This document shows, piece after piece, positions 1 to 12,135 of a stretch of 12,135 bases of DNA. The notes under the pieces are model-generated. The model was not told where the DNA came from. It worked only from the letters and a program-made list of their open reading frames with translations, and did no database searches. This DNA comes from Gemmatimonadota bacterium (GTDB lineage Bacteria; Gemmatimonadota; Gemmatimonadetes; Longimicrobiales; Gaopeijiaceae). The position numbers and the translations under genes were made by a program. Each line of letters begins with the position of its first letter. The stretch's first letter is position 1. The stretch lies in NCBI GenBank assembly GCA_039589315.1, contig JBDHHQ010000115.1, forward strand, positions 1-12,135, in the 5' to 3' direction.

Positions 1-1143
1 TTCAACGTGATCGGCGTACGGCCCGGGGTGGGCGACGGGCCGACGGTCGTGCTGAACGCCCACCACGACAACGTGGCCCTCTGGCCCACCGACCAGGCCG
101 TGGAGGCGTTCGTGGCCGACGGCCGGGTGTGGTGCCCCGCCGCATTCGACGACCTCATGGGCGTGACCCAGATGCTCACCGTGCTTCGGGCCATGAACGC
201 GGCAGACATCCAGACAGCGGGGGACGTCTGGTTTGTGGGCCTGACCGGCGAGGAGGCGCCCCACGGCCCCAGCCACCCGGACGCCAGCCCCGGCGCCGAG
301 CAGCTCGTGCGGGCGAACTACCCGCGCAACCTGGACTGGCGCGACGGGGACATCCTGGTGCAGTTCCACGGGCGCGGGGGCGAGGGCGTTGCCACAGGCA
401 GCACGCCGGTTCGGAACCGGACCATCCTCCGGATCTTCGGGCCCTCCGACAACGGGCTGCGCTGGGCGCCCCACGGCGTCGACGCGTTGGCCCGGATCGT
501 CACCCGTGTGGGCCTGGAGGTCAGGGATCCCCGGGCCACCGACGTGCCCTTCGAGAGCAACCAGCTGGCACCGCTCCCCGAGGACGTGCTGTTCATGAAC
601 ATGGGCATGGTGGGCTCGAGCGACATCATCGGTCGGCCCGGCAGCGAGACGTGGGTCCGGTTCGACATGCGGGCGGCGACCCAAGCCCGCCTGGACATGG
701 CCCACGACGTCATCGAGGGGATCGCCGGTGAGGTCACGAGCGCTATGGGTGACGGCTTCTCGTACGTCTACGAGATCAACAGCAAGAACGGCGTCGAGGA
801 GGGAATCCCCGGCTGGGACAAGGTCGACAACGCCCCGGCCCGGATGGCGGCCGCAGCGTCGGTGGCGCTGTACGGGACGGACCCCGTGATCGATCCCGAC
901 AACGGTTGCGGGGACTGCGTGCGGGCCTACAAGACGGGTATGCCCGCCTTCTCGCTCCGGGGTAACGTCGTGGACCACCAGAACGGGCGGGTGGAGCTGG
1001 ACGCGGGCAACGCGCTGGTGTCACCGGTCCGGCGCATGACGGCGACCCACGATGTCACGGAAAGCGCCGAGATCGTGCGGCTGTGGGCCGGCGTGAAGCA
1101 TGGGCTGGTGTTCGCGGTGGCGTACGCGGGGCTAGCCAACTGA
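1..1143 (+). CDS. M20/M25/M40-family metallo-hydrolase/peptidase, 5'-truncated
   Basis: Frame is open from base 1 (FNVIG...). Clan MH motifs NAHHD (HxD), AFDD, TGEE, dimerisation-domain FDMR and C-terminal THDVTE (last His ligand). Stop TGA 1141-1143. Confidence 0.8.
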   Translation, partial: FNVIGVRPGVGDGPTVVLNAHHDNVALWPTDQAVEAFVADGRVWCPAAFDDLMGVTQMLTVLRAMNAADIQTAGDVWFVGLTGEEAPHGPSHPDASPGAEQLVRANYPRNLDWRDGDILVQFHGRGGEGVATGSTPVRNRTILRIFGPSDNGLRWAPHGVDALARIVTRVGLEVRDPRATDVPFESNQLAPLPEDVLFMNMGMVGSSDIIGRPGSETWVRFDMRAATQARLDMAHDVIEGIAGEVTSAMGDGFSYVYEINSKNGVEEGIPGWDKVDNAPARMAAAASVALYGTDPVIDPDNGCGDCVRAYKTGMPAFSLRGNVVDHQNGRVELDAGNALVSPVRRMTATHDVTESAEIVRLWAGVKHGLVFAVAYAGLAN

Positions 1144-1272: not shown

Positions 1273-2067
1273 TCAGTTGAAGACCGCTGGCTCGTGAACG
1301 GGATGACATCCCACGCACCGGTCGGTCATGGGCTCGAGGTGCCCTGGGGGGCCGTCCGGACCTCGGGGGGCCGGAGGTTTCCAGGAGGAAAGACGTGCTC
1401 CACCGTGGCAGGATTGACACAGAACGTCCGAGTCGGAGGCCGCCAGGCGCACCGGCCCCACGCTGCCATGAAGTTGGTGGCAATCCGAACAAGTGCTACT
1501 GCTGTGGCTCGGCGTGACGTACGCGGCGGGCTCGTGGCACGTCGAACAGAGCATCTGCTGGCCGTCTGCGTCGTTGATCTCCGGGTTGGGCGTGTGGGGG
1601 TCGTGGCAACTCATGCACTGCACGTCGCCGCCGGTGGCTCCGAAGACGCCCATAGAGGACGCCGGTCGCGCGTAACGTATGGAATTCAGGCGGTCCTGCA
1701 TCAACGCGCCAGACCCTTCTGAGCGCTTTCCGACGAAGTGATCGTCCGACAAATCCAGCCCGAGGTAGGTGTTGGGCCCTGCAGAAGGGTTGCCCTGCCA
1801 GTTGCCGCGCATGTGCCGAGCGCGCTCCGTAGTACTCGTGTGGCAGGCGAGGCAATTCGCGGTCGATTCGTCCAGGCCTCCCGGCATGTCCAGCGTTCCG
1901 AACGTTCCTACGCCGTGATCGACGTGACACATCTGGCAGCTGCCCGGCGACTGGGTCAGCGTGCTTCCCCCCGGGTGCTGCCCCATGAGGGACGCCGGGA
2001 CGAGAAGGAAGACCGTCATGAGCGCCGCGCCGCCCAGAGCGGGCACCGTTGCGGACCGCCAAGCCAC
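1273..2067 (-). CDS. Exported heptaheme cytochrome c: OmcE-like tetraheme core plus three extra C-terminal hemes
   Basis: Seven CxxCH (CQMCH, CLACH, CMSCH, CSTCH, CSDCH, CQSCH, CVGCH). Signal-peptide-like N terminus (...LMTVFLLVPASLMG|Q). LGLDLSDDH motif shared with the 6149-6796 protein (VGTDLSDDH). GTG start lies 1 nt after the upstream TGA. Confidence 0.9.
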   Translation of the reverse strand: MAWRSATVPALGGAALMTVFLLVPASLMGQHPGGSTLTQSPGSCQMCHVDHGVGTFGTLDMPGGLDESTANCLACHTSTTERARHMRGNWQGNPSAGPNTYLGLDLSDDHFVGKRSEGSGALMQDRLNSIRYARPASSMGVFGATGGDVQCMSCHDPHTPNPEINDADGQQMLCSTCHEPAAYVTPSHSSSTCSDCHQLHGSVGPVRLAASDSDVLCQSCHGGARLSSWKPPAPRGPDGPPGHLEPMTDRCVGCHPVHEPAVFN

Positions 2068-2068
2068 G

Positions 2069-4000
2069 TCAGAAGCTCCGGCTCAGGCGAACCATGACCC
2101 GTTCCTCGGTCCGCGGGTTGAAGTTCTCCCAAACCAGCCGTTCATAGCCCATCTCCGCGATGACCAGCCCGGGGGCCCATCTCACCCTCAACTCTCCGCC
2201 CAGGAAGTTCTCGAGGCGCGCGGGCTCTCGCCATTTCCAGTAAACCAGCTGACCATCGAGGCTGAGGTCCTCCATGAAAGGCCATTCGAGACCGCCGCGT
2301 GCTTCGGTAAGGACCAAGGTGATGATGCCACTTGCCCATTGCGTCGTGTGGGACCCTGACAGGAGCCAACGCAGCCGGTTGGCCAGGAGGAAGCTCCAGC
2401 GGCCCTGAAAGCGGAAAGTGTCATTGTCGAAGGTGTCGGTAGTGCGACGGGAGTATTCACCCCCGATTCCCACCGTCCCGACGGGCACGGCGGCATTCAA
2501 GGAGGCGCCCGCCGTGAGGAAATCGTAATTGCGGAGGGCCGAGAGCGTCCCCGGGATCACGTCGTCCGTGGCGGTCTGTACCGAACGCCGGTGATAGAGC
2601 CGGACTCCGCTTCCGATGAGCAGTGCCACGTCCAAATCGGTTACCCAGGCGTTGGAAAAGGCTCCTGCCAGCAGCGTGTGTCGGTAGTCCACTCGGACCG
2701 AGGTGCCGGGCGGCATGCGTCCACCTGGAAGGCTCAGGATCTCGACGAACGGGCCCGCGACCACCGCCCTGTAGTCGAAATCTTCCTGGAATACCTCCGC
2801 CCCGTCCTCGCTGCTGATGAGGATGCTGGAGGGATCGGCAAAGGGACGGTCGAGCTGGAAGCGGCCGGACGGAGACACGACATGCGGCTCGTCCACCACG
2901 TCGACGCTGCCCTCGAGTTTGGGATCTTGACCATGCCATTCGTAGCCCAGGGTACCCGTGGCCCGGAGCAGGATGCCCAGCGGCAGCGGCGTCGTCAGAT
3001 TCACGCCCGGACCGATCCGGGAGTACCTCAAGCTGCCGAGCGCCAAGTCCCGATGCTGCGTGTAGGCTGTAGCGTCGACACCCAGGCCTGGCAGGGCTTG
3101 GAAGGTCAAGGCGGCGGATCCCGTGGTCTCACCGGCCCGGCCCACCGCCCTCGACTCTCCTGTCCGCTGAAACCACATCTCCGACGAGACTTTCTGGGTG
3201 TGCTGGATCCGGACGCTCTCTCGCCACGACAATCTGCGGAAGGGGTTGGTCCCCATTCGCTGTCTACCCGAGAGCTCCGACAGCAGCTGGCTGCCCTTGC
3301 CCCAGGTCAGCCGGTGGGAAAGGACGCCATTCCTTAGTCGGTAGTTGCGCCCGGTCAGGCGGTCCAGGAAGGAGACCTGATCCAGCGCAATCCTCAGCCT
3401 ACGGTTCGTTGCCCTGAAGCGCCCGGTCCGGGTTCGTGTCGCGATGCGGAAGGTGGAAGGCGTCGTGCCCGACTCGAAAGACTGGCTCCGGTCATCCTCC
3501 TCGAACGTCAGCTGCATGGGCAGGTAGCGGTTCCGATGATTGAGCGTGGCCCGCAACTGGGTCGCGTCGATCTCCGTGTAGGCGCCCAGCCGGGCTCGCT
3601 GGTCGGCATCGATCCTCGAGCCCTGGAGGCTCAGGGAGACCAGCGACGACGAGAGCAGGGTCACGTTGGCCGAACCCGTGAAGCTCGTGCCGGCGCCATC
3701 CGGCGAGTGGGGCTCGCCAAAGAACGCGGTCTGGGAAAAACCAGGGCGGACGTTGAGGGAGAAGCGTAGGAAGCGTGGGTCCAGCACGGCCCCGCTCATC
3801 TGTAGCCTGATCCACTCGTGAAACGTCCGCAGCCCCCTTTTGGCCAAGGAAGGGACGGTTGAACGGTTGGCGTCCAGGCCGACGCCGAGCTCGCCGGCCG
3901 GACGCGTCACCGTGAAGGTCTGTTGAGCGGCCGCCGGGATCGCCAAGGCGGAGGCCACGCCAAAGGCCAGTGTGCCAACGAACGACGCCCGCGTGATCAT
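2069..4000 (-). CDS. Large outer-membrane beta-barrel (putative porin of a porin-cytochrome complex), about 643 aa
   Basis: Signal peptide MITRASFVGTLAFGVASALAIPAAA|Q. Many alternating amphipathic strands (FSLNVRPGF, LVSLSLQG, FRFQGRWSF, LSLDGQLVYW). C terminus VRLSRSF fits a BamA beta-signal. No heme motifs; flanked by multiheme cytochromes. ATG at 4000 overlaps the upstream TGA (ATGA), preferred over the ORF-track start 4033. Confidence 0.8.
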   Translation of the reverse strand: MITRASFVGTLAFGVASALAIPAAAQQTFTVTRPAGELGVGLDANRSTVPSLAKRGLRTFHEWIRLQMSGAVLDPRFLRFSLNVRPGFSQTAFFGEPHSPDGAGTSFTGSANVTLLSSSLVSLSLQGSRIDADQRARLGAYTEIDATQLRATLNHRNRYLPMQLTFEEDDRSQSFESGTTPSTFRIATRTRTGRFRATNRRLRIALDQVSFLDRLTGRNYRLRNGVLSHRLTWGKGSQLLSELSGRQRMGTNPFRRLSWRESVRIQHTQKVSSEMWFQRTGESRAVGRAGETTGSAALTFQALPGLGVDATAYTQHRDLALGSLRYSRIGPGVNLTTPLPLGILLRATGTLGYEWHGQDPKLEGSVDVVDEPHVVSPSGRFQLDRPFADPSSILISSEDGAEVFQEDFDYRAVVAGPFVEILSLPGGRMPPGTSVRVDYRHTLLAGAFSNAWVTDLDVALLIGSGVRLYHRRSVQTATDDVIPGTLSALRNYDFLTAGASLNAAVPVGTVGIGGEYSRRTTDTFDNDTFRFQGRWSFLLANRLRWLLSGSHTTQWASGIITLVLTEARGGLEWPFMEDLSLDGQLVYWKWREPARLENFLGGELRVRWAPGLVIAEMGYERLVWENFNPRTEERVMVRLSRSF

Positions 4001-4941
4001 TGCGCTCGGACGGTGATGTGGCAGCGGTGGCACTGCTCGATTCCTGCATCGAAGGCCACTACGCCCTGATGGCAGGCTCCGCAGCCCGCCCGTCCGTGAG
4101 CCTCATCCTGGTTGAGATCCAGGGCTCCCCGCAAAGGCTCGAAGAGTTTGTCGTGGCAAGCCTTGCATTTGTAGCGGATCCTGTGCGCCCAGTGCGGGAA
4201 CCGGGAGGGAGGATAAAGGTTGCCCGACAAAGCCGTGAGATCGGGTCCCTCCTCTGCCAGGGCCGAGTCCGCAACCACGGGCTCTGCTCTGATGAGCACG
4301 TAATCCGGCTCCAGGTCTGCCCGGACCCGGTTCGCCGGCAGATCGGGGGCCTCGTGGCAGCGCTCGCACGTCTGAATCGGGAAGGCTACGGGTCCGTGGC
4401 ACCTTCCGCACGACGCATCGCTGTGGATCACATCCCCGGAGACGTCCGCGTCGCCTCGCCGGTAGATGCCCGGGTGACATGTCTCGCAGGTGATCTGGTC
4501 CGCGTGGGTCGAGTGCGGGAACGAGGCTTCGGGCCCGTCTCCCGACTGCATGAAGAAGTCGAAGGGGAACTGGGCGCTCTGCCCGTCATCCTCGCCCGGT
4601 AGCGCATCGCGGGGCCGAATGATCCGCTGGTGCTCGGCGGCGACCCAATCCACGTTCCCGGCTCGGTCCCGAGGCAGCAGTGCAAGGACGCTGTCCCGCT
4701 GCATGATCGCCTCGATCGGCGGCGGCGGTTCCTCGACCTCCACAACGAGTCCGGCTCCGGATCCGGCGGTCCCCGCAGCAGGCTCGGGCGGACGCTCGGC
4801 CGCCGGCGGAAGATCCAGGAGAATCTGAGCCGCCTGGGCGCAGCCCAGCGTGAGGAGCGCGCCGAGAACGACCGGGGGCAGGTTCCGCTTGTTAGGGCCG
4901 CCCCTCGGTCTGGGCCATCTGCCGGGGCTCGACGAAGCCAT
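3997..4941 (-). CDS. Hexaheme lipoprotein cytochrome c with two c(7)-type triheme domains
   Basis: Six CxxCH (CETCH, CGRCH, CERCH; CKACH, CGACH, CHRCH) in two repeats of FPHxxH..CxxCH..CGxCH..VAF..CxRCH. Lipobox LTLG|C. LPRDRAGNVDWV motif precedes the first domain. Start uncertain: ATG 4941 overlaps the upstream gene by 50 nt. Confidence 0.9.
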   Translation of the reverse strand: MASSSPGRWPRPRGGPNKRNLPPVVLGALLTLGCAQAAQILLDLPPAAERPPEPAAGTAGSGAGLVVEVEEPPPPIEAIMQRDSVLALLPRDRAGNVDWVAAEHQRIIRPRDALPGEDDGQSAQFPFDFFMQSGDGPEASFPHSTHADQITCETCHPGIYRRGDADVSGDVIHSDASCGRCHGPVAFPIQTCERCHEAPDLPANRVRADLEPDYVLIRAEPVVADSALAEEGPDLTALSGNLYPPSRFPHWAHRIRYKCKACHDKLFEPLRGALDLNQDEAHGRAGCGACHQGVVAFDAGIEQCHRCHITVRAQ

Positions 4942-6025
4942 AGACGTTCAGTCGGTCTGGACCGTACTGGTTCGTGACTAGGATGAGGTATTTGAGCTCG
5001 AACGACTCGTGCACCAGCGGGCGAAAGTAATCCAGGTTGTCGTAGTCGATGATCACCTGGGCCGGCAGCCACATGTCTCCCGGTCCCTGGTACGGTCCGC
5101 CGAAGAACATGAGCAGCTCGCCATCGCGATTGAACACCTGCACGTTCTCGAAGCCCGAGTCAACGACGTAAACGTTGCCGTCACGGTCCGCGGCGACTCC
5201 CTTGGGACGGGTGAACTGGCCCATCCGGGAGCCGTAGCTTCCGAGCCGATGCAGGAACCGGCCCTCGCGAGAGTAGGCCTTGACGCTGAAGTCGCCGAAG
5301 TCACTCACGTAGACCCGGTCATCTTGGACCCAGAGATTCGTCGGCTGGCGGAGGACCCCGTTCGACTCGTTCTCGGGGAAGGACCGGACGTGGCGGCGGG
5401 TGGATTTGTCATAGACATGAACCGCTCCCCCAGTGACGTCCGCGACCCAGAGACTCTGGTCGTCCACGAACACGTCCGTGGGTCGCAGCCCCCGATCCTC
5501 GCCGAAGGCATCCTTGTAGACCCCGGTCGAGTCGAACACCACGATCTGACCGCGATCCGCATCGGCGACGTACAGATCGCCCGTGACTCTATCTACACTG
5601 CAGTTGATGGGCTTTCTGAGCTTCCCGGGACCCTGCGGAACGAAGTACTCGAAGGTCTTGGCATTCAGGTCCAGGACATCGAGGCCCGGGAGCATGGAGT
5701 CGCAGACGTAGATGACACCGTCTTGGATTGCGACTCCGTACGGCTTGTTGAAGGTCTTGTAGCTCTCGTCCTCGTCGGAGCCGATAAGGGCATCCAGGAA
5801 CGATCGACCCTTCTCTCCCACGACGTCTCGCTCATCCGAGAAGGCGGCCAGAAACTGGATGCGCGGGGGGTCCGGCGGCAAGGGGTATACGATCAGCAGG
5901 TCGTCAGGAGAGGGTTGTGGGCTGCTGTCGCTCTGCCCGGTGGCGCACGCAGCTGCTGCGAACAGCAGCGCTGCGGTTACGATTCGCTTGGCGGCTTGCG
6001 CTCCGCCGCTGCTTTCCATGGTCAT
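4892..6025 (-). CDS. NHL-repeat six-bladed beta-propeller lipoprotein
   Basis: Repeated NHL blades (FNKPYGVA, LRKPINCS, LRPTDVF, LRQPTNLW, FTRPKGVAADRDGNVYVVDSG, WLPAQV). Lipobox AAAA|C and PLPPDPPRIQFL after the tether. Start ATG 6025 (AAGG upstream) or 6019; the ORF-track start 6067 lies inside a stem-loop. Confidence 0.88.
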   Translation of the reverse strand: MTMESSGGAQAAKRIVTAALLFAAAACATGQSDSSPQPSPDDLLIVYPLPPDPPRIQFLAAFSDERDVVGEKGRSFLDALIGSDEDESYKTFNKPYGVAIQDGVIYVCDSMLPGLDVLDLNAKTFEYFVPQGPGKLRKPINCSVDRVTGDLYVADADRGQIVVFDSTGVYKDAFGEDRGLRPTDVFVDDQSLWVADVTGGAVHVYDKSTRRHVRSFPENESNGVLRQPTNLWVQDDRVYVSDFGDFSVKAYSREGRFLHRLGSYGSRMGQFTRPKGVAADRDGNVYVVDSGFENVQVFNRDGELLMFFGGPYQGPGDMWLPAQVIIDYDNLDYFRPLVHESFELKYLILVTNQYGPDRLNVYGFVEPRQMAQTEGRP

Positions 6026-6053
6026 CGCTCGAACCTTGAGGACCGTTTGTGGA

Positions 6054-6082
6054 GGGGGGGCAGGCATCGGGCCTACCCCCCC
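6054..6082 (-). terminator. Strong intergenic stem-loop downstream of the omcE-like gene (mRNA stabiliser or leaky terminator)
   Basis: mRNA GGGGGGGUAGGC-CCGAU-GCCUGCCCCCCC forms a 12-bp stem with one G-U pair and has no poly-U tail. Confidence 0.6.
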
Positions 6083-6148
6083 AGTAGGTGCTCAGGCCGC
6101 GGCGAGTCCGCCCCGTCCCAAGCGTTGAGGCCGTTGAGGCAGCGCTCC

Positions 6149-6796
6149 TTACTTCTTGTGGCAGGTCAGACAGAACTGGCTGTTCGTGTTCTCGACCAGC
6201 AGCAGTGCTGTGTTCCCGCTGTTATGGACGTCGTGGCACGAGGCGCACTCCAGGTTGTCGCCGAAGAGCAGGTCTGCCTGGATGGTACCGCCTAGCGCCG
6301 TGAGGTGGCCGTTGTCCGTGGGGTCCCAAAGCTCGATGTCGGACGTAGCAAGCGCTGCCGTGTACGCGAACGAAATCGGGTGATCGTCCGACAGATCCGT
6401 TCCGACGTCCCGATTCGCGGGGATGAAGTTGGTGCCGGTCGTGTTGCCGCTGAAGTTGTCCAGAGCCACCGTGCCGTCGTGACAGCTCAGGCAGAGCTTC
6501 GACTGATTGTTGGGCTGGCCAGGGGCCGACTGCATCTCCGTGCTGGAATAGGGCGTGAAGTTGGTGACGCCTGTGACCGTATGATTCCACAGTGGCGCCG
6601 TGAGCACCGTCTGGTCGCCGTTGTGAGGCGTGTGACACACCTCACAGATCTCACCGCCGGCGGTACCGGGGCCCGGGTTCCATGCATCGTCACTGAAGTC
6701 ATGAGCCGAGCCTATGATGGTCGCCTGTCCCATAGCGGGAGTCGCCGAGAGCGCCGCGAGCAGCGCGACAGAAACAAGTGTGGCTGTGCGTTTCAT
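6149..6796 (-). CDS. omcE: OmcE-like exported tetraheme cytochrome c (candidate cytochrome nanowire subunit)
   Basis: Signal peptide, four CxxCH, and the ordered motifs HDFS / EICEVCHTPHN / PLWN / FTPYSS / SKLCLSCHDG / GTDLSDDHPISF / LECASCHDVH / NSQFCLTCHK. These match my recollection of Geobacter OmcE (HDLS / QICVFCHTPHN / PLWN / FTLYSS / SLFCMSCHDG / GTDLSNDHPVNF / LECGSCHKVH / GSKLCLGCHK). Size 215 aa. The symbol denotes homology, not proven orthology. Confidence 0.85.
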   Translation of the reverse strand: MKRTATLVSVALLAALSATPAMGQATIIGSAHDFSDDAWNPGPGTAGGEICEVCHTPHNGDQTVLTAPLWNHTVTGVTNFTPYSSTEMQSAPGQPNNQSKLCLSCHDGTVALDNFSGNTTGTNFIPANRDVGTDLSDDHPISFAYTAALATSDIELWDPTDNGHLTALGGTIQADLLFGDNLECASCHDVHNSGNTALLLVENTNSQFCLTCHKK

Positions 6797-6800
6797 TCAT

Positions 6801-6808
6801 TCCTCCTT
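6801..6808 (-). promoter_or_regulatory. Strong Shine-Dalgarno of the omcE-like gene
   Basis: AAGGAGGA ends 4 nt before ATG 6796 and is the best SD match seen in the cluster. Confidence 0.85.
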
Positions 6809-6841
6809 GGAAGAGAGGATTCCCCGGGGTTTGCACAACCC

Positions 6842-6863
6842 GTCCGGAGTCCTCGCTCCGGAC
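6842..6863 (-). promoter_or_regulatory. Perfect 8-bp inverted repeat upstream of the omcE-like gene
   Basis: GTCCGGAG-N6-CTCCGGAC, seen directly; function inferred. Confidence 0.45.
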
Positions 6864-6958
6864 TTTCTCCAAAGGTACAGGAAGGCCCCAAACAGCGGCG
6901 TAGGGAGAGATTAGGTGCGTGAGAGGGGAGCTGTCCCGCCCGACTGTCAGGGCATTCC

Positions 6959-8785
6959 CTACAACGAATCGTTACGCCGCCCTCGAGGCACCGTATCCGG
7001 CGTGGGCGGGCGTGGGTCGAAGGGCTCGTCCCGCAGCTCCTCGTGGCACGCGAGGCACACGGAGCGGGTCCACCAGGGATCTGCCGCGGGGAAGGTCTTG
7101 TGGCACACCGAGCCCGAGCAGGTGGCGTGGACCAGGTCTTCCTCATGTGCCCAGGACGGCGGTGGGTTGTGACACGCCGCGCACTCGGTTTCGGTCTCGT
7201 GGTGGTCCACGTGACAGCTCACGCAGTCCACCTCGTCGGCGTTCATGGCCCGCTCCACCTCGTGGCACTGGGCACACCCCGCTTCCACGTGCGAGCCGTG
7301 GGGAAACGCCACGCTCCGGACCTCGGGCCCTCCCGGAAGAGCGAAGACCACGAGACGCTCACGCTCCGCCAGGTTCGTGGTGACGTGGCAGGACTCGCAG
7401 CTGTCGGGGGTTCGGCCCGCGTGGTGGCAAGCGTTGCACCATCCGGCGTTCGTCACCGGAGGCGCGCTCCCGGACTCGTGGCACCTCAAGCAGTCCACGC
7501 GCCGATGGGCGTTGTGATTGAACGTGCCGCTGCCGTCCGGCGGGGGAACGTTTGGGTCAACCTCCTGAGCGCCTGCGGACGCTCCGGCAACGGGACGGAC
7601 ACCCGCGGAGGCCTGCAGCGAGGCCATGATGGGCGCGACCAGGGCGACGGGGAAGACGCCTACCGCCCCGGACAGGGCACCCCCTCCGGGTAGCAGCCTG
7701 ACGCTCTGGACCGCCCCGCCGCGCGGCTCGCCGCGTTGTCGAGACGTGAATCCCTCGCTCGACGTCGAGAGACCCACGCGAGGCTCCCTCATGATCTCGC
7801 TGTGGCAGCTCAGGCAGTCGTCTTCTTCCACTCGGAAGTCGTGCTGCGTGTGGCACTGGCTGCAGTCGTCCACGTCGATCCCGGCCCAGACGTGATGCTC
7901 CACGGGCAGCGTATCGACCATGGTGTGACAGCCGATCTCCGAACATGACTGGCCAGCGTCGCGGGAGCGGACCTGGTCGTGGGGGTTGTGGCAGGTGCTG
8001 CACTTCCCCTCGTGCGGCTCGTCCTCGGGGAAGATGCCCACGATCTCACGCATCTCGTGACACGCCAGGCAGGTATCGTGTCCGGGCCGAAGCGTGTTGA
8101 GCGCCAGCGCGGCCGCGCCGTCATGGGCGCCGAAGTCGCCCTCCGGGGGGCTATCCCAGAGCTCGGACTCCTGGTCCGGTAGCTCCGCGTTGAACTGGTG
8201 GCAGGTCACGCAGTGGATGCCCAGGCCCTCCATCCGACTCAGGGCCACGCGGATCTCGTTATGGCATCCGGACCGCCCGCAGGTCCGGTCCGTCGGCGCG
8301 AACTCGTGAATCGAGACGGAATGGCATTCCACGCACTGCAGCCCCCGCAGCGTGCGGTCCTCCGATTCGAGGTGCACCTTGTGCCCTGCGGTGTTGCCGA
8401 CCAGGGCCCACTGCTCCGGGTCGCCGTCCACGTGGCATGCCGCGCACTTCTCGTTTTCGACTTCTGCGTGCGCGCCAATCTCCTCGGGCCCGAACAGGAC
8501 CTGTTCGAGCCCCATCCGGGCGCGCTGGTACGTCGTGGGATGGTGACACGCCTTGCACGAAAGGTCCTTGTGGGCGCTCACCTGGAACAGCTCGAACGGC
8601 TCTGCCATGAGATGGCAGCTCGTGCAGAAGTCGTTGTCGTGCTGGACGTAGTCGTACGTGCCGTAGGCGAGCATCCCGGCCGCGGCCGCGGCCAGGGAGA
8701 GGAGGACCGTCAGCCCGGCAACGGCACCTCTGGGAAGTCTCCGCACCCCTGCGAGGAGTCGGCGTGCCCACTGTGGACGTCTCAT
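6959..8785 (-). CDS. Membrane-anchored NapC/NirT(NrfH/CymA)-like multiheme cytochrome c with 19 heme motifs (putative quinol dehydrogenase plus periplasmic heme chain)
   Basis: Arg-rich N terminus and one TM helix (AVAGLTVLLSLAAAAAGMLAY), then NDFCTSCHLM...SAHKDLSCKACH typical of NapC/NirT N-domains. 16 CxxCH plus 3 CX4CH. ATG 8785 preferred over GTG 8869. Confidence 0.85.
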   Translation of the reverse strand: MRRPQWARRLLAGVRRLPRGAVAGLTVLLSLAAAAAGMLAYGTYDYVQHDNDFCTSCHLMAEPFELFQVSAHKDLSCKACHHPTTYQRARMGLEQVLFGPEEIGAHAEVENEKCAACHVDGDPEQWALVGNTAGHKVHLESEDRTLRGLQCVECHSVSIHEFAPTDRTCGRSGCHNEIRVALSRMEGLGIHCVTCHQFNAELPDQESELWDSPPEGDFGAHDGAAALALNTLRPGHDTCLACHEMREIVGIFPEDEPHEGKCSTCHNPHDQVRSRDAGQSCSEIGCHTMVDTLPVEHHVWAGIDVDDCSQCHTQHDFRVEEDDCLSCHSEIMREPRVGLSTSSEGFTSRQRGEPRGGAVQSVRLLPGGGALSGAVGVFPVALVAPIMASLQASAGVRPVAGASAGAQEVDPNVPPPDGSGTFNHNAHRRVDCLRCHESGSAPPVTNAGWCNACHHAGRTPDSCESCHVTTNLAERERLVVFALPGGPEVRSVAFPHGSHVEAGCAQCHEVERAMNADEVDCVSCHVDHHETETECAACHNPPPSWAHEEDLVHATCSGSVCHKTFPAADPWWTRSVCLACHEELRDEPFDPRPPTPDTVPRGRRNDSL

Positions 8786-8977
8786 GAAGCGATCACGGTC
8801 CCTACGTACAGACACGTTTCTTGCGCCCACCCCACCACACCTCGGCGCCGCCGGGTATGACGCACCCACTCGCAGTATCTGCGGGCGCGAAAGAACGAAG
8901 TATCGGGCGAAGCCTGGGTCGGCCGGTAGGGAATCGTCCCTGCACCGGGTGGGGAATCCCCCTTCGAGCTACCTGGC

Positions 8978-10402
8978 TCAAGTGCTCTCGGGCGTGCGTT
9001 CCGGTTCTGCCTGGGGGTGCGGGTTCTCCTTCACCTCGGCCAGCCATCGGTGAAAGGTCCGGCGGCTCACGCCCGCAGCCTCCGCGGCCTGTGAGACATT
9101 GCCGCCGTGCAGCCTCAGCAGCTCCGTCACGTAGGACTCCTGGAACCTCCGCAGCGCCTCCTCGCGCGCCTCGGCGTATCGGACCGAGGAGATCGGGGCG
9201 GGCAAATCCGGCGCGGGTGGTGCGGAACGTCCGAATCGCATCTCGATCGGCAGATCGGACAACGTGACCCGACCGTCGGAGTCCAGCGCTACCACGCGTT
9301 CGACCAGGTTCTTCAGTTGCCGGACGTTGCCTGGCCACGCATAGCTCTCGAGGGCCTCCCACACCTCGGAGCTCACCGCCGGGGGGGATCGTCCCGCCTT
9401 TCGGGAGAAGCTCTCGATGAAGTGCTCTGCGAGAAGCAGGACGTCGCTGTTCCGCTCCCTCAGGGGAGGAACCGTCAGCTTCACCACGTTCAGCCGGTAG
9501 AAGAGGTCCTCGCGGAACCCTCCATCGGCCACCGCGGCTTCGAGATCTCGATTGGTCGCGGCGATCATCCTGACGTCGATGCCGTGGTATTGCGTCGCAC
9601 CCACGGGGCGAACGCTGCGGTCCTCGAGCACGCGGAGGAGCTTGGCCTGGAGAGGTGGTGTGAGCTCGCCCACCTCGTCCAGGAAGATGGTCCCACGGTC
9701 TCCCTCGGTGAGCAGGCCCTTGGTACGGTTCACTGCCCCGGTGAACGCGCCCTTCTCGTGCCCGAACAGCTCGCTTTCCAGCAGTCCCTCGGGCAACGCG
9801 GCGCAATCGACCGGCACGAACGGTCGGTCCCTCCGGTTGCTCGCGGCGTGGATCGCCCTCGCGATGACCTCCTTTCCGGTGCCGCTCTCGCCGACCACGA
9901 GCACGTTGGCCTCCGTCTTCGCCACGCGCTGGGCCTGGTCGAGCAGGCGCACGAACCGCGGGCTGGATCCGACGATGGTGGCGAGGGAGTCGGGGTCGAG
10001 TTGCCGGCGAAGGGCCTGGTTCTCGAGCATCAGACCCCGGTAGCGAACGGCTCTCTTGACGACGACGGAGAGCTGATCGGCCGTGAAGGGCTTGGCCAGG
10101 TAGTCGAACGCTCCTTCGCCGATGGCCTGGATGGCCGAATCCACGGTCGCGTAGCCCGTGATGAGGATCACGGGCAGGCCGGGGTCTTCGGCCTGCGCCT
10201 GGGCCAGGATCGTCAGGCCGTCAACCTGCGGCATGCGTACGTCGGAGATCACGATGTCGGGGTCGGTTTCCCCCAGAGTCTCGTGGAACAGGGTCGGGTC
10301 CTGCAGCGTGGTACAGCGGTATCCCTCGGCCGACAGCAGCCGGTCGAGGTTCTCGAGCATCTCGGGCTCGTCGTCGACGATGAGCACGCGGGTCTCGCTC
10401 AC
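8978..10402 (-). CDS. NtrC/AtoC-family sigma54-dependent response regulator (REC-AAA+-Fis HTH)
   Basis: REC domain (VLIVDDE, ISDVRMP, ITGY, YLAKPF). Walker A GESGTGKE, ESELFGHEKGAFTGA, Walker B FLDEVGE, FREDLFYRLNV, WPGNVRQL, HTH GGNVSQAAEAAGVSRRTF. GTG 10402 overlaps the kinase stop (GTGA). Confidence 0.95.
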   Translation of the reverse strand: MSETRVLIVDDEPEMLENLDRLLSAEGYRCTTLQDPTLFHETLGETDPDIVISDVRMPQVDGLTILAQAQAEDPGLPVILITGYATVDSAIQAIGEGAFDYLAKPFTADQLSVVVKRAVRYRGLMLENQALRRQLDPDSLATIVGSSPRFVRLLDQAQRVAKTEANVLVVGESGTGKEVIARAIHAASNRRDRPFVPVDCAALPEGLLESELFGHEKGAFTGAVNRTKGLLTEGDRGTIFLDEVGELTPPLQAKLLRVLEDRSVRPVGATQYHGIDVRMIAATNRDLEAAVADGGFREDLFYRLNVVKLTVPPLRERNSDVLLLAEHFIESFSRKAGRSPPAVSSEVWEALESYAWPGNVRQLKNLVERVVALDSDGRVTLSDLPIEMRFGRSAPPAPDLPAPISSVRYAEAREEALRRFQESYVTELLRLHGGNVSQAAEAAGVSRRTFHRWLAEVKENPHPQAEPERTPEST

Positions 10403-12135
10403 GACCCCATCCGCGCCGGTGCTTCGCCCCGAGCCGCACGGACCGGTAGCTCTACCACGAAACAACCGCCGAAGCCCTCTCGCTCGGAGGCTCTGATGGA
10501 GCCCCCGTGGCGTTCGACTACGCTTCGGCAGACCGTGAGCCCCAGACCGGTTCCGCCGTCTGCTGCCCGGGTGGTGAAGAACGGCTCGAAGATCCGTCCG
10601 CGCAGCTCCCGAGCGACACCGGGGCCCGTGTCACGGACCTCCCATCGGACGTACCCCGGTCTGGACGCCTGTCCCACCACCACCTCGACCACACCTCCCT
10701 CCGGCGTCATCGAAGCGGCGTTGAGGAGCAGATTCACGAACACGGTCTCGATGGCCTTCTCGTTCCCACTCATGGGGGGCACACGGGACTCCTCGGTCGT
10801 GACCAACTCGACTCCTTTGCGCTGGAAGTTCCGCCGCAGCAGCCGCGTGACCCGGTCCACGACCTGATGCAGATCCACGGTACCATCGCCTTCGGTGTCC
10901 TCGCGCGCGAACGCGAGGAGATCCGTGGTGAGTCGGCCGATGCGCTCCACGTGGGCCCGCAGAACGTCGAGATCGGCACGCACGCGCTCGGGATCCGGCT
11001 GTGCGGCGAGCTCGCGCTGCATGAGCTCGATCCGGTTTCCGAGGATGGCCAGCGGGTTGTTGATCTCGTGGGCCAGTCCCGCTGCCATGACGCTCACGGC
11101 GGCCAATCGCTCCGATCGGCGCATCTGCTCCTCGAGCAGCTGTTCGGCCCGTGCGTCCCGGATGATCAGGGAATACCCGACGACGGCTCCGTCCTTGTCC
11201 ACGATGTGACTCTGTGTGAGGCTGACCGGGAGCTCCTCGCCGGAGCGCGTCGTGCGCAGGGTCCTGAGCGCCACGACGGCCCTCGACTCCGCCAGCTCTC
11301 GTTGGAGGAACGTCTCCTCGGCGGACCGGTGGGTCGCAGCCGGGCCCACGAGTCGCTGGATCGGCACTCCGCGCGCCTCGACCTCGGTGAAGCCGAAGAG
11401 CCTTTCGGCCGCCGGGTTCCAGAGCGTGACCTTGCCGTCCCGATCCAGAGCGACGACCGCGTCGGCCGCGTGTCCAACCACCTGATCGAGATGAGCACGG
11501 GTGGCCGCGAGGGCACGCGTACGTGCCTCCACCATGGCCTCGAGATTGCGACGGTGATCCTCGAGCGACCGCGCCATCTCCGAAAAATCCCGGGCCAGCT
11601 CCTCCAACTCGTCGTTCGTGTGGATCTGGATCGGTCGCGCAGGCTGGCCAGTGGCCAACAGGCGAGTCGCGGAGCGGAGCTCGTAGATGGGACGGGTGAA
11701 CTGATCCGCCGCGACAGCGGAGACCGACAGCACCGTGACCAGAATGGCGGCACCGAGGATGGCCACGATGCCGGCGAAGTAGGCCAAGGACCCTCGAACG
11801 GCTTCCAGGGGGACAACCCGGTAGAGGGTCAGGGGGACCGAGGTGCCCGTGAGCGGAATGGGCCTGAAGCTCGCGAGGTGCGTGGACGTTCGGGTCCGGC
11901 CTGGCCGGCCACTGAGGACCTCCTCGGCCAACTCGCTCCCCAACTCGGCCAGCGGGTCCGACACGGGATCCACCGGCGCGGTCGCTTCGGGCGGTGGGGA
12001 CCACGTCGTATGAAACAGTAGGCCCCCATCGGGACCCACCAGACCGCTCGAGCCGCGATTCCCGGATCGGTCGAGGGACAGAGGGCCGAAAAGGGAGGCC
12101 AGGGGAACCTCCCCCACCGTCAACCCGACGGTGCG
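10399..12135 (-). CDS. NtrB-like sensor histidine kinase (TM-HAMP-PAS-HisKA-HATPase_c), 5'-truncated
   Basis: TM (LAYFAGIVAILGAAILVTVLSVSAVA), HAMP (TRPI..DELEELARDFSEMA), PAS (WNPAAERLFGFT), H-box AHEINNPL, N-box NLLLNA, G1 DTGPG, F-box IFEPFFTT, G2 GTGLGL. Frame stays open to the window edge. Confidence 0.95.
   Translation of the reverse strand, partial: RTVGLTVGEVPLASLFGPLSLDRSGNRGSSGLVGPDGGLLFHTTWSPPPEATAPVDPVSDPLAELGSELAEEVLSGRPGRTRTSTHLASFRPIPLTGTSVPLTLYRVVPLEAVRGSLAYFAGIVAILGAAILVTVLSVSAVAADQFTRPIYELRSATRLLATGQPARPIQIHTNDELEELARDFSEMARSLEDHRRNLEAMVEARTRALAATRAHLDQVVGHAADAVVALDRDGKVTLWNPAAERLFGFTEVEARGVPIQRLVGPAATHRSAEETFLQRELAESRAVVALRTLRTTRSGEELPVSLTQSHIVDKDGAVVGYSLIIRDARAEQLLEEQMRRSERLAAVSVMAAGLAHEINNPLAILGNRIELMQRELAAQPDPERVRADLDVLRAHVERIGRLTTDLLAFAREDTEGDGTVDLHQVVDRVTRLLRRNFQRKGVELVTTEESRVPPMSGNEKAIETVFVNLLLNAASMTPEGGVVEVVVGQASRPGYVRWEVRDTGPGVARELRGRIFEPFFTTRAADGGTGLGLTVCRSVVERHGGSIRASEREGFGGCFVVELPVRAARGEAPARMGS

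What the first reader, a model, noticed from the sequence alone, without database searches (positions are those of the whole stretch)
1273..12135. Compact candidate cytochrome-nanowire and extracellular electron transfer operon: quinol dehydrogenase, OmcE-like subunit, NHL propeller, c7 lipoprotein, porin, OmcE-like adaptor, with its own two-component system
Seen: eight co-oriented genes, several translationally coupled (GTGA 10399-10402, ATGA 3997-4000, 1-nt gap at 2068), encoding 19+4+6+7 = 36 heme motifs, a beta-barrel and a beta-propeller lipoprotein. Known: OmcE polymerises into conductive filaments in Geobacter sulfurreducens, where as I recall it neighbours an NHL protein and multiheme cytochrome genes; NapC/NirT proteins oxidise quinol; porin-cytochrome complexes (MtrAB, Pcc/Ext, PCC3) carry electrons across the outer membrane. 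Inference: this one locus encodes a whole path from the quinone pool through periplasm and outer membrane to a filament. The very high GC does not suggest Geobacter, so it may be an undescribed nanowire system in a lineage (possibly Gemmatimonadota) not known for it.
Basis: partly seen in the sequence, partly recalled or inferred. Interest (0 to 1): 0.92.

Follow-up and report, generated by a model that had tools for sequence, protein, structure and literature searches.

The report
Gemmatimonadota OmcE nanowire cluster with cap
These genes are a compact Gemmatimonadota version of the known OmcE/Uet cytochrome-nanowire gene set, and the last gene looks like the end-cap or anchor subunit that a recent nanowire paper said was missing from such operons.

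Summary
The eight genes, their overlaps and 36 heme motifs are real (33 CxxCH, 3 CX4CH). The five-gene core is an omcE/uet-type cluster, a described kind: an OmcE-like tetraheme, an NHL lipoprotein, a c7 lipoprotein, a plug-less barrel (pLDDT 95) and an OmcE-domain heptaheme. I found no report of it in Gemmatimonadota. Strong OmcE homologues occur in 22 of 400 sampled genomes of the phylum; 20 of these have all five parts. This scan has found the same cluster type on other DNA, in other phyla.

The single eight-gene quinone-to-filament operon is not conserved. The NapC-like gene comes from a separate, commoner conduit family (130 of 401 genomes). The two-component pair is not at this position in the same-genus genome. 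A nitrate-reductase operon probably lies just upstream.

New point: ordinary subunits stop within four residues of heme 4. Of 68 longer paralogues, 64 carry an extra histidine at +9/+10 (background 4%), in three separate clades. The heptaheme has 15 conserved histidines, the 2n+1 count expected of an anchor. That role is inferred, and the direction of electron flow is untested.

The parts
6149..6796 (-). OmcE/UetA-like tetraheme, candidate polymerising subunit; ends 2 residues after the heme-4 motif
   Evidence: PDB 7TFS E 8e-26 and 9YUQ E 1e-22, full length; four CxxCH plus distal H32, H58, H139, H191 in 31-32 of 32 aligned homologues
4892..6025 (-). NHL beta-propeller lipoprotein (UetH/I-like); possible chaperone or scaffold (inferred). 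The ORF extends to 6067
   Evidence: Pfam NHL over cut-off; Cys after a hydrophobic leader in all homologues printed; near omcE in 22 of 22 strong phylum hits
3997..4941 (-). Hexaheme lipoprotein of two c7 domains (GSU1996-type; like fused UetD/E/G); likely periplasm-facing relay
   Evidence: TIGR04257 over cut-off; PDB 3OV0 E 3e-23; conserved lipobox-position Cys
2069..4000 (-). Large plug-less outer-membrane beta-barrel (about 26-28 strands) with an inserted beta domain at about residues 335-420 of the mature chain; UetC-like secretion pore or anchor site
   Evidence: AlphaFold2 pLDDT 95.4; fold matches to TonB-receptor barrels, MtrB 6R2Q_B (Z 15.3, rmsd 8.6, 381 aligned), LptD, FimD; no Pfam, NCBIfam or PDB sequence match; 2,673 representatives at E<=0.001
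1273..2067 (-). Heptaheme OmcE-domain paralogue with a three-heme extension and 15 conserved His (2n+1): candidate cap or anchor, a short UetJ-like protein
   Evidence: HHalign to the OmcE alignment 99.35%, E 6.6e-21; its profile hits 9YUQ and 7TFS; His conservation; extra His at +10 after heme 4
6959..8785 (-). Membrane-anchored 19-heme cytochrome with an NrfH/NapC-like N-terminus; accessory, from a phylum-wide porin-cytochrome cassette family
   Evidence: NrfH PDB 2J7A E 1.5e-5; TIGR03153 below cut-off; family in 130 of 401 genomes; 19 of 20 sampled homologue neighbourhoods show the paralogue beside a different porin
8978..10402 (-). NtrC/AtoC-type sigma-54 response regulator; accessory
   Evidence: Pfam Response_reg, Sigma54_activat, HTH_8; not at this position in the same-genus genome
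10399..12135 (-). HAMP-PAS sensor kinase, cut by the contig end; its N-terminus is probably the last ORF of G000:C41
   Evidence: Pfam; the window covers residues about 199-760 and the end of C41 covers residues 1-135 of the same-genus homologue

Best explanation
The five-gene core builds an OmcE-type cytochrome filament on an outer-membrane barrel, most likely to pass respiratory electrons to solid or polymeric acceptors or to partner cells. Shown: the gene identities, the barrel fold, the conserved synteny, and that subunits stop at heme 4 while the paralogue continues with an extra His. Inferred steps: (1) Ccm-matured tetraheme subunits polymerise head to tail, each lending a His to an open heme of its neighbour, as in OmcE. 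(2) The barrel is the exit pore or anchor site, helped by the NHL lipoprotein. (3) The heptaheme binds one OmcE through its OmcE domain but fills its own open heme with H188/H200, so it ends the chain; its three extra hemes probably reach toward the periplasm (base anchor). (4) The c7 lipoprotein feeds it. (5) In this genus the NapC-like 19-heme protein has been recruited as the quinol-oxidising entry point.
For: Full-length match to the solved tetraheme filaments with all eight heme ligands conserved. Barrel model. All five parts in 20 of 22 strong phylum hits, in six families. The barrel profile finds barrels beside omcE in metagenome loci across a wide GC range. 91 subunits end within 4 residues of heme 4; 64 of 68 longer paralogues have their first downstream His at +9/+10, against 37 of 876 motifs in other multiheme proteins of the same loci; 13 proteins could not be parsed. 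The three cap types form separate groups in a quick tree, and the short-tail type sits among the subunits of its own clusters. Petersen 2026 give extra-His as the anchor criterion. Ccm genes are present. A full-length NapC-like gene precedes omcE in G000, G001 and G027.
Against: No filament, expression or physiology data. Which heme is open and which His bridges subunits in OmcE was not established: the OmcE paper was not held, and in OmcS the open heme is the fifth of six, not the last. H31 is kept in only 21-22 of 30 heptaheme homologues and H243 in 16 exact, 27 nearby. The 68 capped proteins are 2-3 lineages, not independent cases. One cluster (L047) has no cap gene in its 7.7-kb contig. 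The NapC-like gene and the two-component pair are not conserved with the core. A cluster with the same inventory was proposed for electron uptake.
Confidence: 0.55

Rival explanations
1. The same machine, run inward: electrons are taken from Fe(II), reduced humics or a cathode and passed to nitrate reductase or oxygen reductases, as proposed for the uet cluster.
For: The inventory matches uetA-J of the cathode-oxidising Tenderiales and some Gallionella. NapA (over the NCBIfam cut-off), DsrO/NrfC-like and DsrP/NrfD genes lie on G000:C41, which probably adjoins the window, and NrfD is directly upstream of the NapC-like gene in G001. Four heme-copper oxidase loci are in the genome.
Against: The characterised homologues with solved filaments are from metal reducers. 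The nap operon has its own quinol-interacting DsrO/DsrP-like pair. Gemmatimonadota are mostly heterotrophs (recalled). I did not test for carbon-fixation genes.
Confidence: 0.22
2. A fixed porin-cytochrome conduit without a long filament: the heptaheme sits in the barrel like MtrA in MtrB and holds one or a few tetrahemes at the surface.
For: The barrel is MtrB-sized and plug-less. The heptaheme's extension resembles MtrA-type doubled-CXXCH repeats (6R2Q_A is the top hit of its profile). The uet authors framed it this way, with polymers as a possibility.
Against: The tetraheme keeps the eight-His pattern and the abrupt C-terminus of the solved filament subunits; both solved relatives are filaments.
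Confidence: 0.13
3. The heptaheme is the distal tip or initiator, with solvent-exposed hemes that touch minerals, not the base anchor.
For: The His count only says that it ends a chain, not which end. The short-tail caps have no extension to span a barrel. In many other clusters the 11-heme paralogue has its own NHL gene, as if exported like a subunit.
Against: In most Gemmatimonadota clusters with a heptaheme it directly follows the barrel gene, and its extension is MtrA-like.
Confidence: 0.2
4. The cytochromes serve a periplasmic soluble-substrate reductase (Nap) and have no extracellular role.
For: The nap operon is probably adjacent, and NapC-family proteins feed Nap (established knowledge). 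This may hold for the 19-heme gene alone.
Against: It does not explain the barrel, or the five-gene core that recurs in many genomes and metagenomes.
Confidence: 0.05

Closest known systems
omcE nanowire gene cluster of Geobacter and Desulfuromonas (Petersen et al. 2026, PMC13712944; PDB 7TFS, 9YUQ)
   Same: Tetraheme with four CxxCH and four distal His; large beta-barrel; beta-propeller lipoprotein; two further multiheme cytochromes.
   Different: A phylum not among the five listed; one propeller in the core where their smallest clusters have two; Ccm maturation genes elsewhere in the genome where theirs adjoin resB/ccsB; a NapC-like 19-heme gene upstream. They report no anchor or tip candidate in omcE operons. 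I could not check whether their two extra cytochromes are OmcE-domain caps.
uetA-J cluster of Ca. Tenderia electrophaga and some Gallionella (bioRxiv 10.1101/2022.05.06.490989; PMC9900912)
   Same: Tetraheme (UetA), predicted 28-strand barrel (UetC), c7-type hemes (UetDEG), NHL proteins (UetHI), a longer extracellular multiheme (UetJ). Two metagenome loci with three trihemes next to omcE, NHL and barrel are hit by my profiles (L106, L121).
   Different: One hexaheme c7 lipoprotein for three trihemes; a heptaheme for the undecaheme; one NHL; no PPIase or cupredoxin in the core. Uet was proposed for uptake. I did not compare Uet sequences directly.
osc cluster for OmcS assembly (Shen et al. 2025; seen only as a citation in PMC13712944, details recalled)
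   Same: A porin-like pathway with helper proteins proposed to mount an insulated cytochrome filament.
   Different: The subunit here is OmcE-type, not the hexaheme OmcS; homology of the barrels was not testable.
MtrAB / Pcc porin-cytochrome conduits with CymA
   Same: Plug-less barrel of similar size; doubled-CXXCH extension; NapC-family entry point.
   Different: No sequence match of the barrel to MtrB; no decaheme MtrA or MtrC.

Membership tests
OmcE nanowire subunit | Full-length homology to solved OmcE filaments | tested here: met
   7TFS E 8e-26, 9YUQ E 1e-22. The PDB listing names them only 'cytochrome c'; that they are the two OmcE filaments is recalled for 7TFS and inferred for 9YUQ
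OmcE nanowire subunit | Four CxxCH plus four conserved distal His | tested here: met
   H32, H58, H139, H191 align with His in both structures and are kept in 31-32 of 32 homologues
OmcE nanowire subunit | Polymerises into a conductive filament with an inter-subunit His ligand | not testable with these tools
   Needs cryo-EM or expression
omcE gene cluster (Petersen 2026) | Large outer-membrane beta-barrel nearby | tested here: met
omcE gene cluster (Petersen 2026) | Beta-propeller lipoprotein nearby (their inclusion criterion) | tested here: met
omcE gene cluster (Petersen 2026) | Two propeller lipoproteins (smallest Desulfuromonadia clusters) | tested here: inconclusive
   One in the window; a second NHL gene with a 13-heme partner lies on G000:C41, about 17 kb from the end that probably adjoins the window, and such a pair adjoins the core in many relatives
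omcE gene cluster (Petersen 2026) | Two further multiheme cytochromes | tested here: met
   c7 hexaheme and heptaheme; orthology to the Geobacter genes not tested
uet cluster | Tetraheme, barrel, c7 hemes and NHL co-located | tested here: met
   By gene inventory against passages of the paper, not by sequence
uet cluster | Undecaheme UetJ, cupredoxin, PPIase | tested here: not met
   A heptaheme instead; no such genes among the eight
NapC/NirT/NrfH quinol dehydrogenase (19-heme gene) | N-terminal membrane anchor and NrfH-like heme domain | tested here: inconclusive
   Hydrophobic N-terminus and CxxCHxM at heme 1; PDB 2J7A E 1.5e-5 over 56 residues; TIGR03153 23.8 bits against cut-off 134; the paralogue passes the Pfam NapC/NirT cut-off
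NapC/NirT/NrfH quinol dehydrogenase (19-heme gene) | Quinol-binding residues and activity | not tested
   No structure or assay
Anchor cytochrome as defined by Petersen 2026 (heptaheme) | OmcE-like fold with one more His than its own hemes need | tested here: met
   OmcE domain; 7 hemes and 15 conserved His (H31 and H243 less strictly kept). Their wording is nine His and four hemes; 2n+1 is my extension of it
Anchor cytochrome as defined by Petersen 2026 (heptaheme) | Encoded in the same cluster as the subunit | tested here: met
   52 of 63 distinct barrel-containing loci by parser, 3 more by eye
Anchor cytochrome as defined by Petersen 2026 (heptaheme) | Terminates and anchors the filament | not testable with these tools
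   Needs deletion or structure

The most novel reading that the evidence does not exclude
OmcE/Uet clusters in many phyla encode a dedicated chain-ending subunit: an OmcE-domain paralogue whose extra His, 9-10 residues after heme 4, fills the heme site otherwise bridged by the next subunit. This cap exists as a short tail, a 7-heme form and an 11-heme (UetJ-type) form, and arose at least twice. It would be the missing terminator or anchor of cytochrome nanowires. About one in twenty sampled Gemmatimonadota genomes would then build anchored nanowires, and this genus would wire them to the quinone pool with a recruited 19-heme protein.
Probability: 0.4. Interest if true: 0.78.

Novelty: new variant of a known kind. 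Interest (0 to 1): 0.52.

Why it matters
How cytochrome nanowires are secreted, started and ended is stated as open in Petersen 2026. The cap reading names one gene and one His per cluster to mutate, and it can be tested in Geobacter or Desulfuromonas as well as with this five-gene minimal set. The finding also adds Gemmatimonadota, abundant in soils and sediments (recalled), to the lineages with nanowire-type gene sets; this genome carries a second, unrelated porin-cytochrome conduit too.

Tried and rejected
Single-sequence fold of the barrel failed (pLDDT 30) and was replaced by an alignment-based fold. The complex prediction of barrel plus heptaheme gave no verdict. No sequencing run was listed, and no RNA holder, so expression and the C41-C115 join were not tested with reads; the two contig ends share no exact overlap. 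No sigma-54-like site upstream of any gene with my simple recalled consensus; no sigma-70 promoter and no minus-strand terminator. The 13-heme protein on C41 has no PDB relative. The attempt to reach Geobacter clusters through the phylum of G442 failed: that genome is Pseudomonadota and 0 of 150 others had a match at E<=1e-30. Ten proteins of the barrel family gave no useful names. Rejected: 'eight-gene fixed operon' and 'own two-component system'; my first assignment that heme 4 is the open heme and H58 the donor, which is left open. Not held: Shen 2025, Wang 2022 (OmcE), Wang 2023 review, Wang 2019. The supplement of Petersen 2026 could not be read.
Full report
OBSERVATION. The window is the whole 12,135-base contig C115 of a 6.67-Mb, 67.5% GC genome (95% complete). 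The eight minus-strand genes, the two four-base overlaps and the 1-nt gap are as described. There are 33 canonical heme motifs and three CX4CH sites. Those sites carry a CX2-5CH motif in all nine homologues aligned, so 36 is fair. The same-genus genome G001 has the six genes from the NapC-like gene to the heptaheme in the same order at 81-91% identity; the matching public record is titled as a Gemmatimonadota bacterium.

WHAT THE CORE IS. The 215-aa tetraheme matches only two PDB sequences, 7TFS (E 8e-26) and 9YUQ (E 1e-22), over its full length, with all eight heme ligands in place. That these are the OmcE filaments is recalled for 7TFS and inferred for 9YUQ. The 643-aa protein has no family match. 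With a 146-row alignment it folds at pLDDT 95.4 as an all-beta chain: 27 long strands by my count of the DSSP list, so a 26- or 28-strand barrel, with no plug and one inserted domain. Its fold matches TonB-receptor barrels, MtrB, LptD and FimD about equally, which shows a large barrel and no closer kinship. The NHL protein and the two-domain c7 protein keep a lipobox-position Cys. The heptaheme begins with an OmcE domain (HHalign 99.35%).

CONSERVATION. Of 400 sampled Gemmatimonadota genomes, 31 matched the tetraheme at E<=0.001; 22 were strong (E<=3e-14) and 9 weak. I fetched all 22 neighbourhoods. Twenty hold omcE, NHL, c7, barrel and an OmcE-domain paralogue; one contig is cut short and one (L047) lacks the paralogue in 7.7 kb. 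They fall in six families. In metagenomes, 557 stretches encoded a relative and the best 80 were kept (73 loci). Most long loci show omcE, NHL, barrel, a second NHL and an 11-heme OmcE-domain protein. The barrel family has 2,673 representatives.

WHAT IS NOT CORE. The NapC-like family occurs in 130 of 401 genomes. In 19 of 20 neighbourhoods I fetched from that list it lies beside a different porin, mostly with 8- and 16-heme partners; G000 has such a cassette on C12. A full-length copy precedes omcE only in G000, G001 and G027, all one family; none of the 22 phylum-sample stretches has one, and G434 has the C-terminal part. Close two-component orthologues lie near the cluster in 2 of those 22, and near clusters of G001 and G021. 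In G001 an NrfD/DsrP gene, not the kinase, precedes the NapC-like gene. In G000 that gene lies on C41 after napA (over the NCBIfam cut-off). The last ORF of C41 matches residues 1-135 of the G001 kinase and the window starts at about residue 199. C41 therefore probably joins the window across a short gap (inferred; no overlap). Ccm genes, four heme-copper oxidase loci and four NrfD genes are in the genome.

THE CAP. Petersen 2026 say each OmcE interface has a heme that needs a His from the next subunit. They propose that an anchor would be OmcE-like with nine His for four hemes, found a candidate only outside the cluster, and saw no tip candidate in the operons. Among OmcE-domain proteins in my loci, 91 end within four residues of heme 4 and 68 continue; 13 could not be parsed. 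In 64 of the 68 the first His after heme 4 is at +9 or +10: 42 of 43 of the 11-heme type, 16 of 18 of the 7-heme type and 6 of 7 with a short tail. The background is 37 of 876 motifs in 114 other multiheme proteins. The short-tail proteins add only 11-12 residues holding that His. The window's heptaheme has 15 conserved His for 7 hemes; H31 (21 of 30 exact) and H243 (16 exact, 27 nearby) are the weakest. A capped paralogue was parsed in 52 of 63 distinct barrel-containing loci and seen by eye in 3 more. Seven of the other 8 end within 1.6 kb of the barrel. A quick, unfinished tree puts the three types in separate groups (SH-aLRT 96-99), with the short-tail type among the subunits of its own clusters. 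This suggests at least two origins, though the 7-heme branch is long. Limits: kin are not independent; ligand assignments are inferred; in OmcS the open heme is the fifth of six, so the open heme in OmcE may be heme 3; the data do not tell base from tip.

MECHANISM. Most likely (0.55): quinol, 19-heme protein, c7 lipoprotein, heptaheme at the barrel, OmcE filament, external acceptor. Only the parts, the fold, the synteny and the His pattern are shown. Rivals are inward flow as for uet, a fixed conduit without filament, a tip role for the heptaheme (compatible with the rest of the model) and a periplasmic role.

PRIOR WORK. Petersen 2026 (PMC13712944; I read the abstract, introduction, results parts 1-3 of 10, discussion and passages) list OmcE clusters with barrel and propeller in five phyla; 'Gemmatimonad' does not occur in the main text. 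Its supplement could not be read and may list more taxa or cluster genes. The uet preprint (passages) and Gallionellaceae paper (passages) describe the same inventory and suggest that UetA and UetJ may interact or polymerise; 'OmcE' does not occur in the uet preprint. The peat preprint 10.64898/2026.05.27.727921 (one section and passages) reports OmcE-like conduits in Acidobacteriota and Verrucomicrobiota, without Gemmatimonadota; preprint supplements are closed. Passages only: PMC9473688, PMC12307469, PMC6584659, PMC11492766, PMC1829397, PMC13264449, PMC9769843, PMC11495043; none places such a cluster in this phylum. Searches that found no such report or cap idea. Shen 2025 and Wang 2022 were not held, so the cap idea may be in print there. 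Earlier scan notes list 12 findings of this cluster type on other DNA (8 shown) and none with the cap terms.

VERDICT. Real; a compact variant of the omcE/uet cluster in a further phylum, not a new system. The interest lies in the cap paralogue, which makes a stated open question directly testable. Interest 0.52.

Noticed in passing
G000:C12:102496-108659 (L128:2497-8660): A second conduit: 8+1-heme, 17+3-heme NapC-like, an unnamed porin and a 16-heme protein. The NapC-like member's family is in 130 of 401 Gemmatimonadota genomes; the scan has reported this cassette before.
   Followed up: partly
G000:C41:50855-57664 (L026:10856-17665): A napD-like gene and napA followed by 4-heme and 6-heme cytochromes and DsrO/NrfC-like and DsrP/NrfD genes in place of napGH or napC: an unusual nitrate-reductase operon, probably just upstream of the window.
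   Followed up: partly
G000:C41:43888-46922 (L026:3889-6923): An NHL gene plus a 13-heme protein with no PDB relative. An NHL plus 13/14-heme pair adjoins the omcE core in many Gemmatimonadota (L029-L033, L036-L040).
   Followed up: partly
L021:110-931, L041:10416-11171, L042:5669-6436, L043:7493-8482, L044:8009-8755, L045:6377-8206: OmcE paralogues with an internal fifth heme motif and a short His-bearing tail lie close to ordinary omcE. Some of the '5-heme OmcE-like proteins' proposed as a new nanowire family may be such caps; other 5-heme forms end openly (for example L048:9731-10447).
   Followed up: partly
G001:C252 (L019, L051) and G107 (L031): Two omcE clusters in one genome. In G001 the second has an 11-heme cap and lies near the TonB-receptor plus two-component block that in G000 sits upstream of the NapC-like gene.
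   Followed up: partly
L015, L016, L014: The same cluster type (omcE, NHL, barrel, 11-heme paralogue) in records titled Flavobacteriaceae, Chlorobiota and Proteobacteria; the first two phyla are not among the five listed by Petersen 2026.
   Followed up: no
L032, L033, L036, L039, L040, L046, L047: In several genomes omcE-NHL and c7-barrel are transcribed divergently, which would allow separate control of subunit and pore.
   Followed up: no
window 1-1143 (+): 5'-truncated M20/M28-family peptidase-like gene, convergent on the cluster; the same neighbour in G001 (94% identity). Not part of the system.
   Followed up: no
G000:C10, C12, C21, C40, C54, C63: Six further ORFs with eight CxxCH motifs, five of them 800-950 aa, were seen in the genome scan and not identified.
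   Followed up: no
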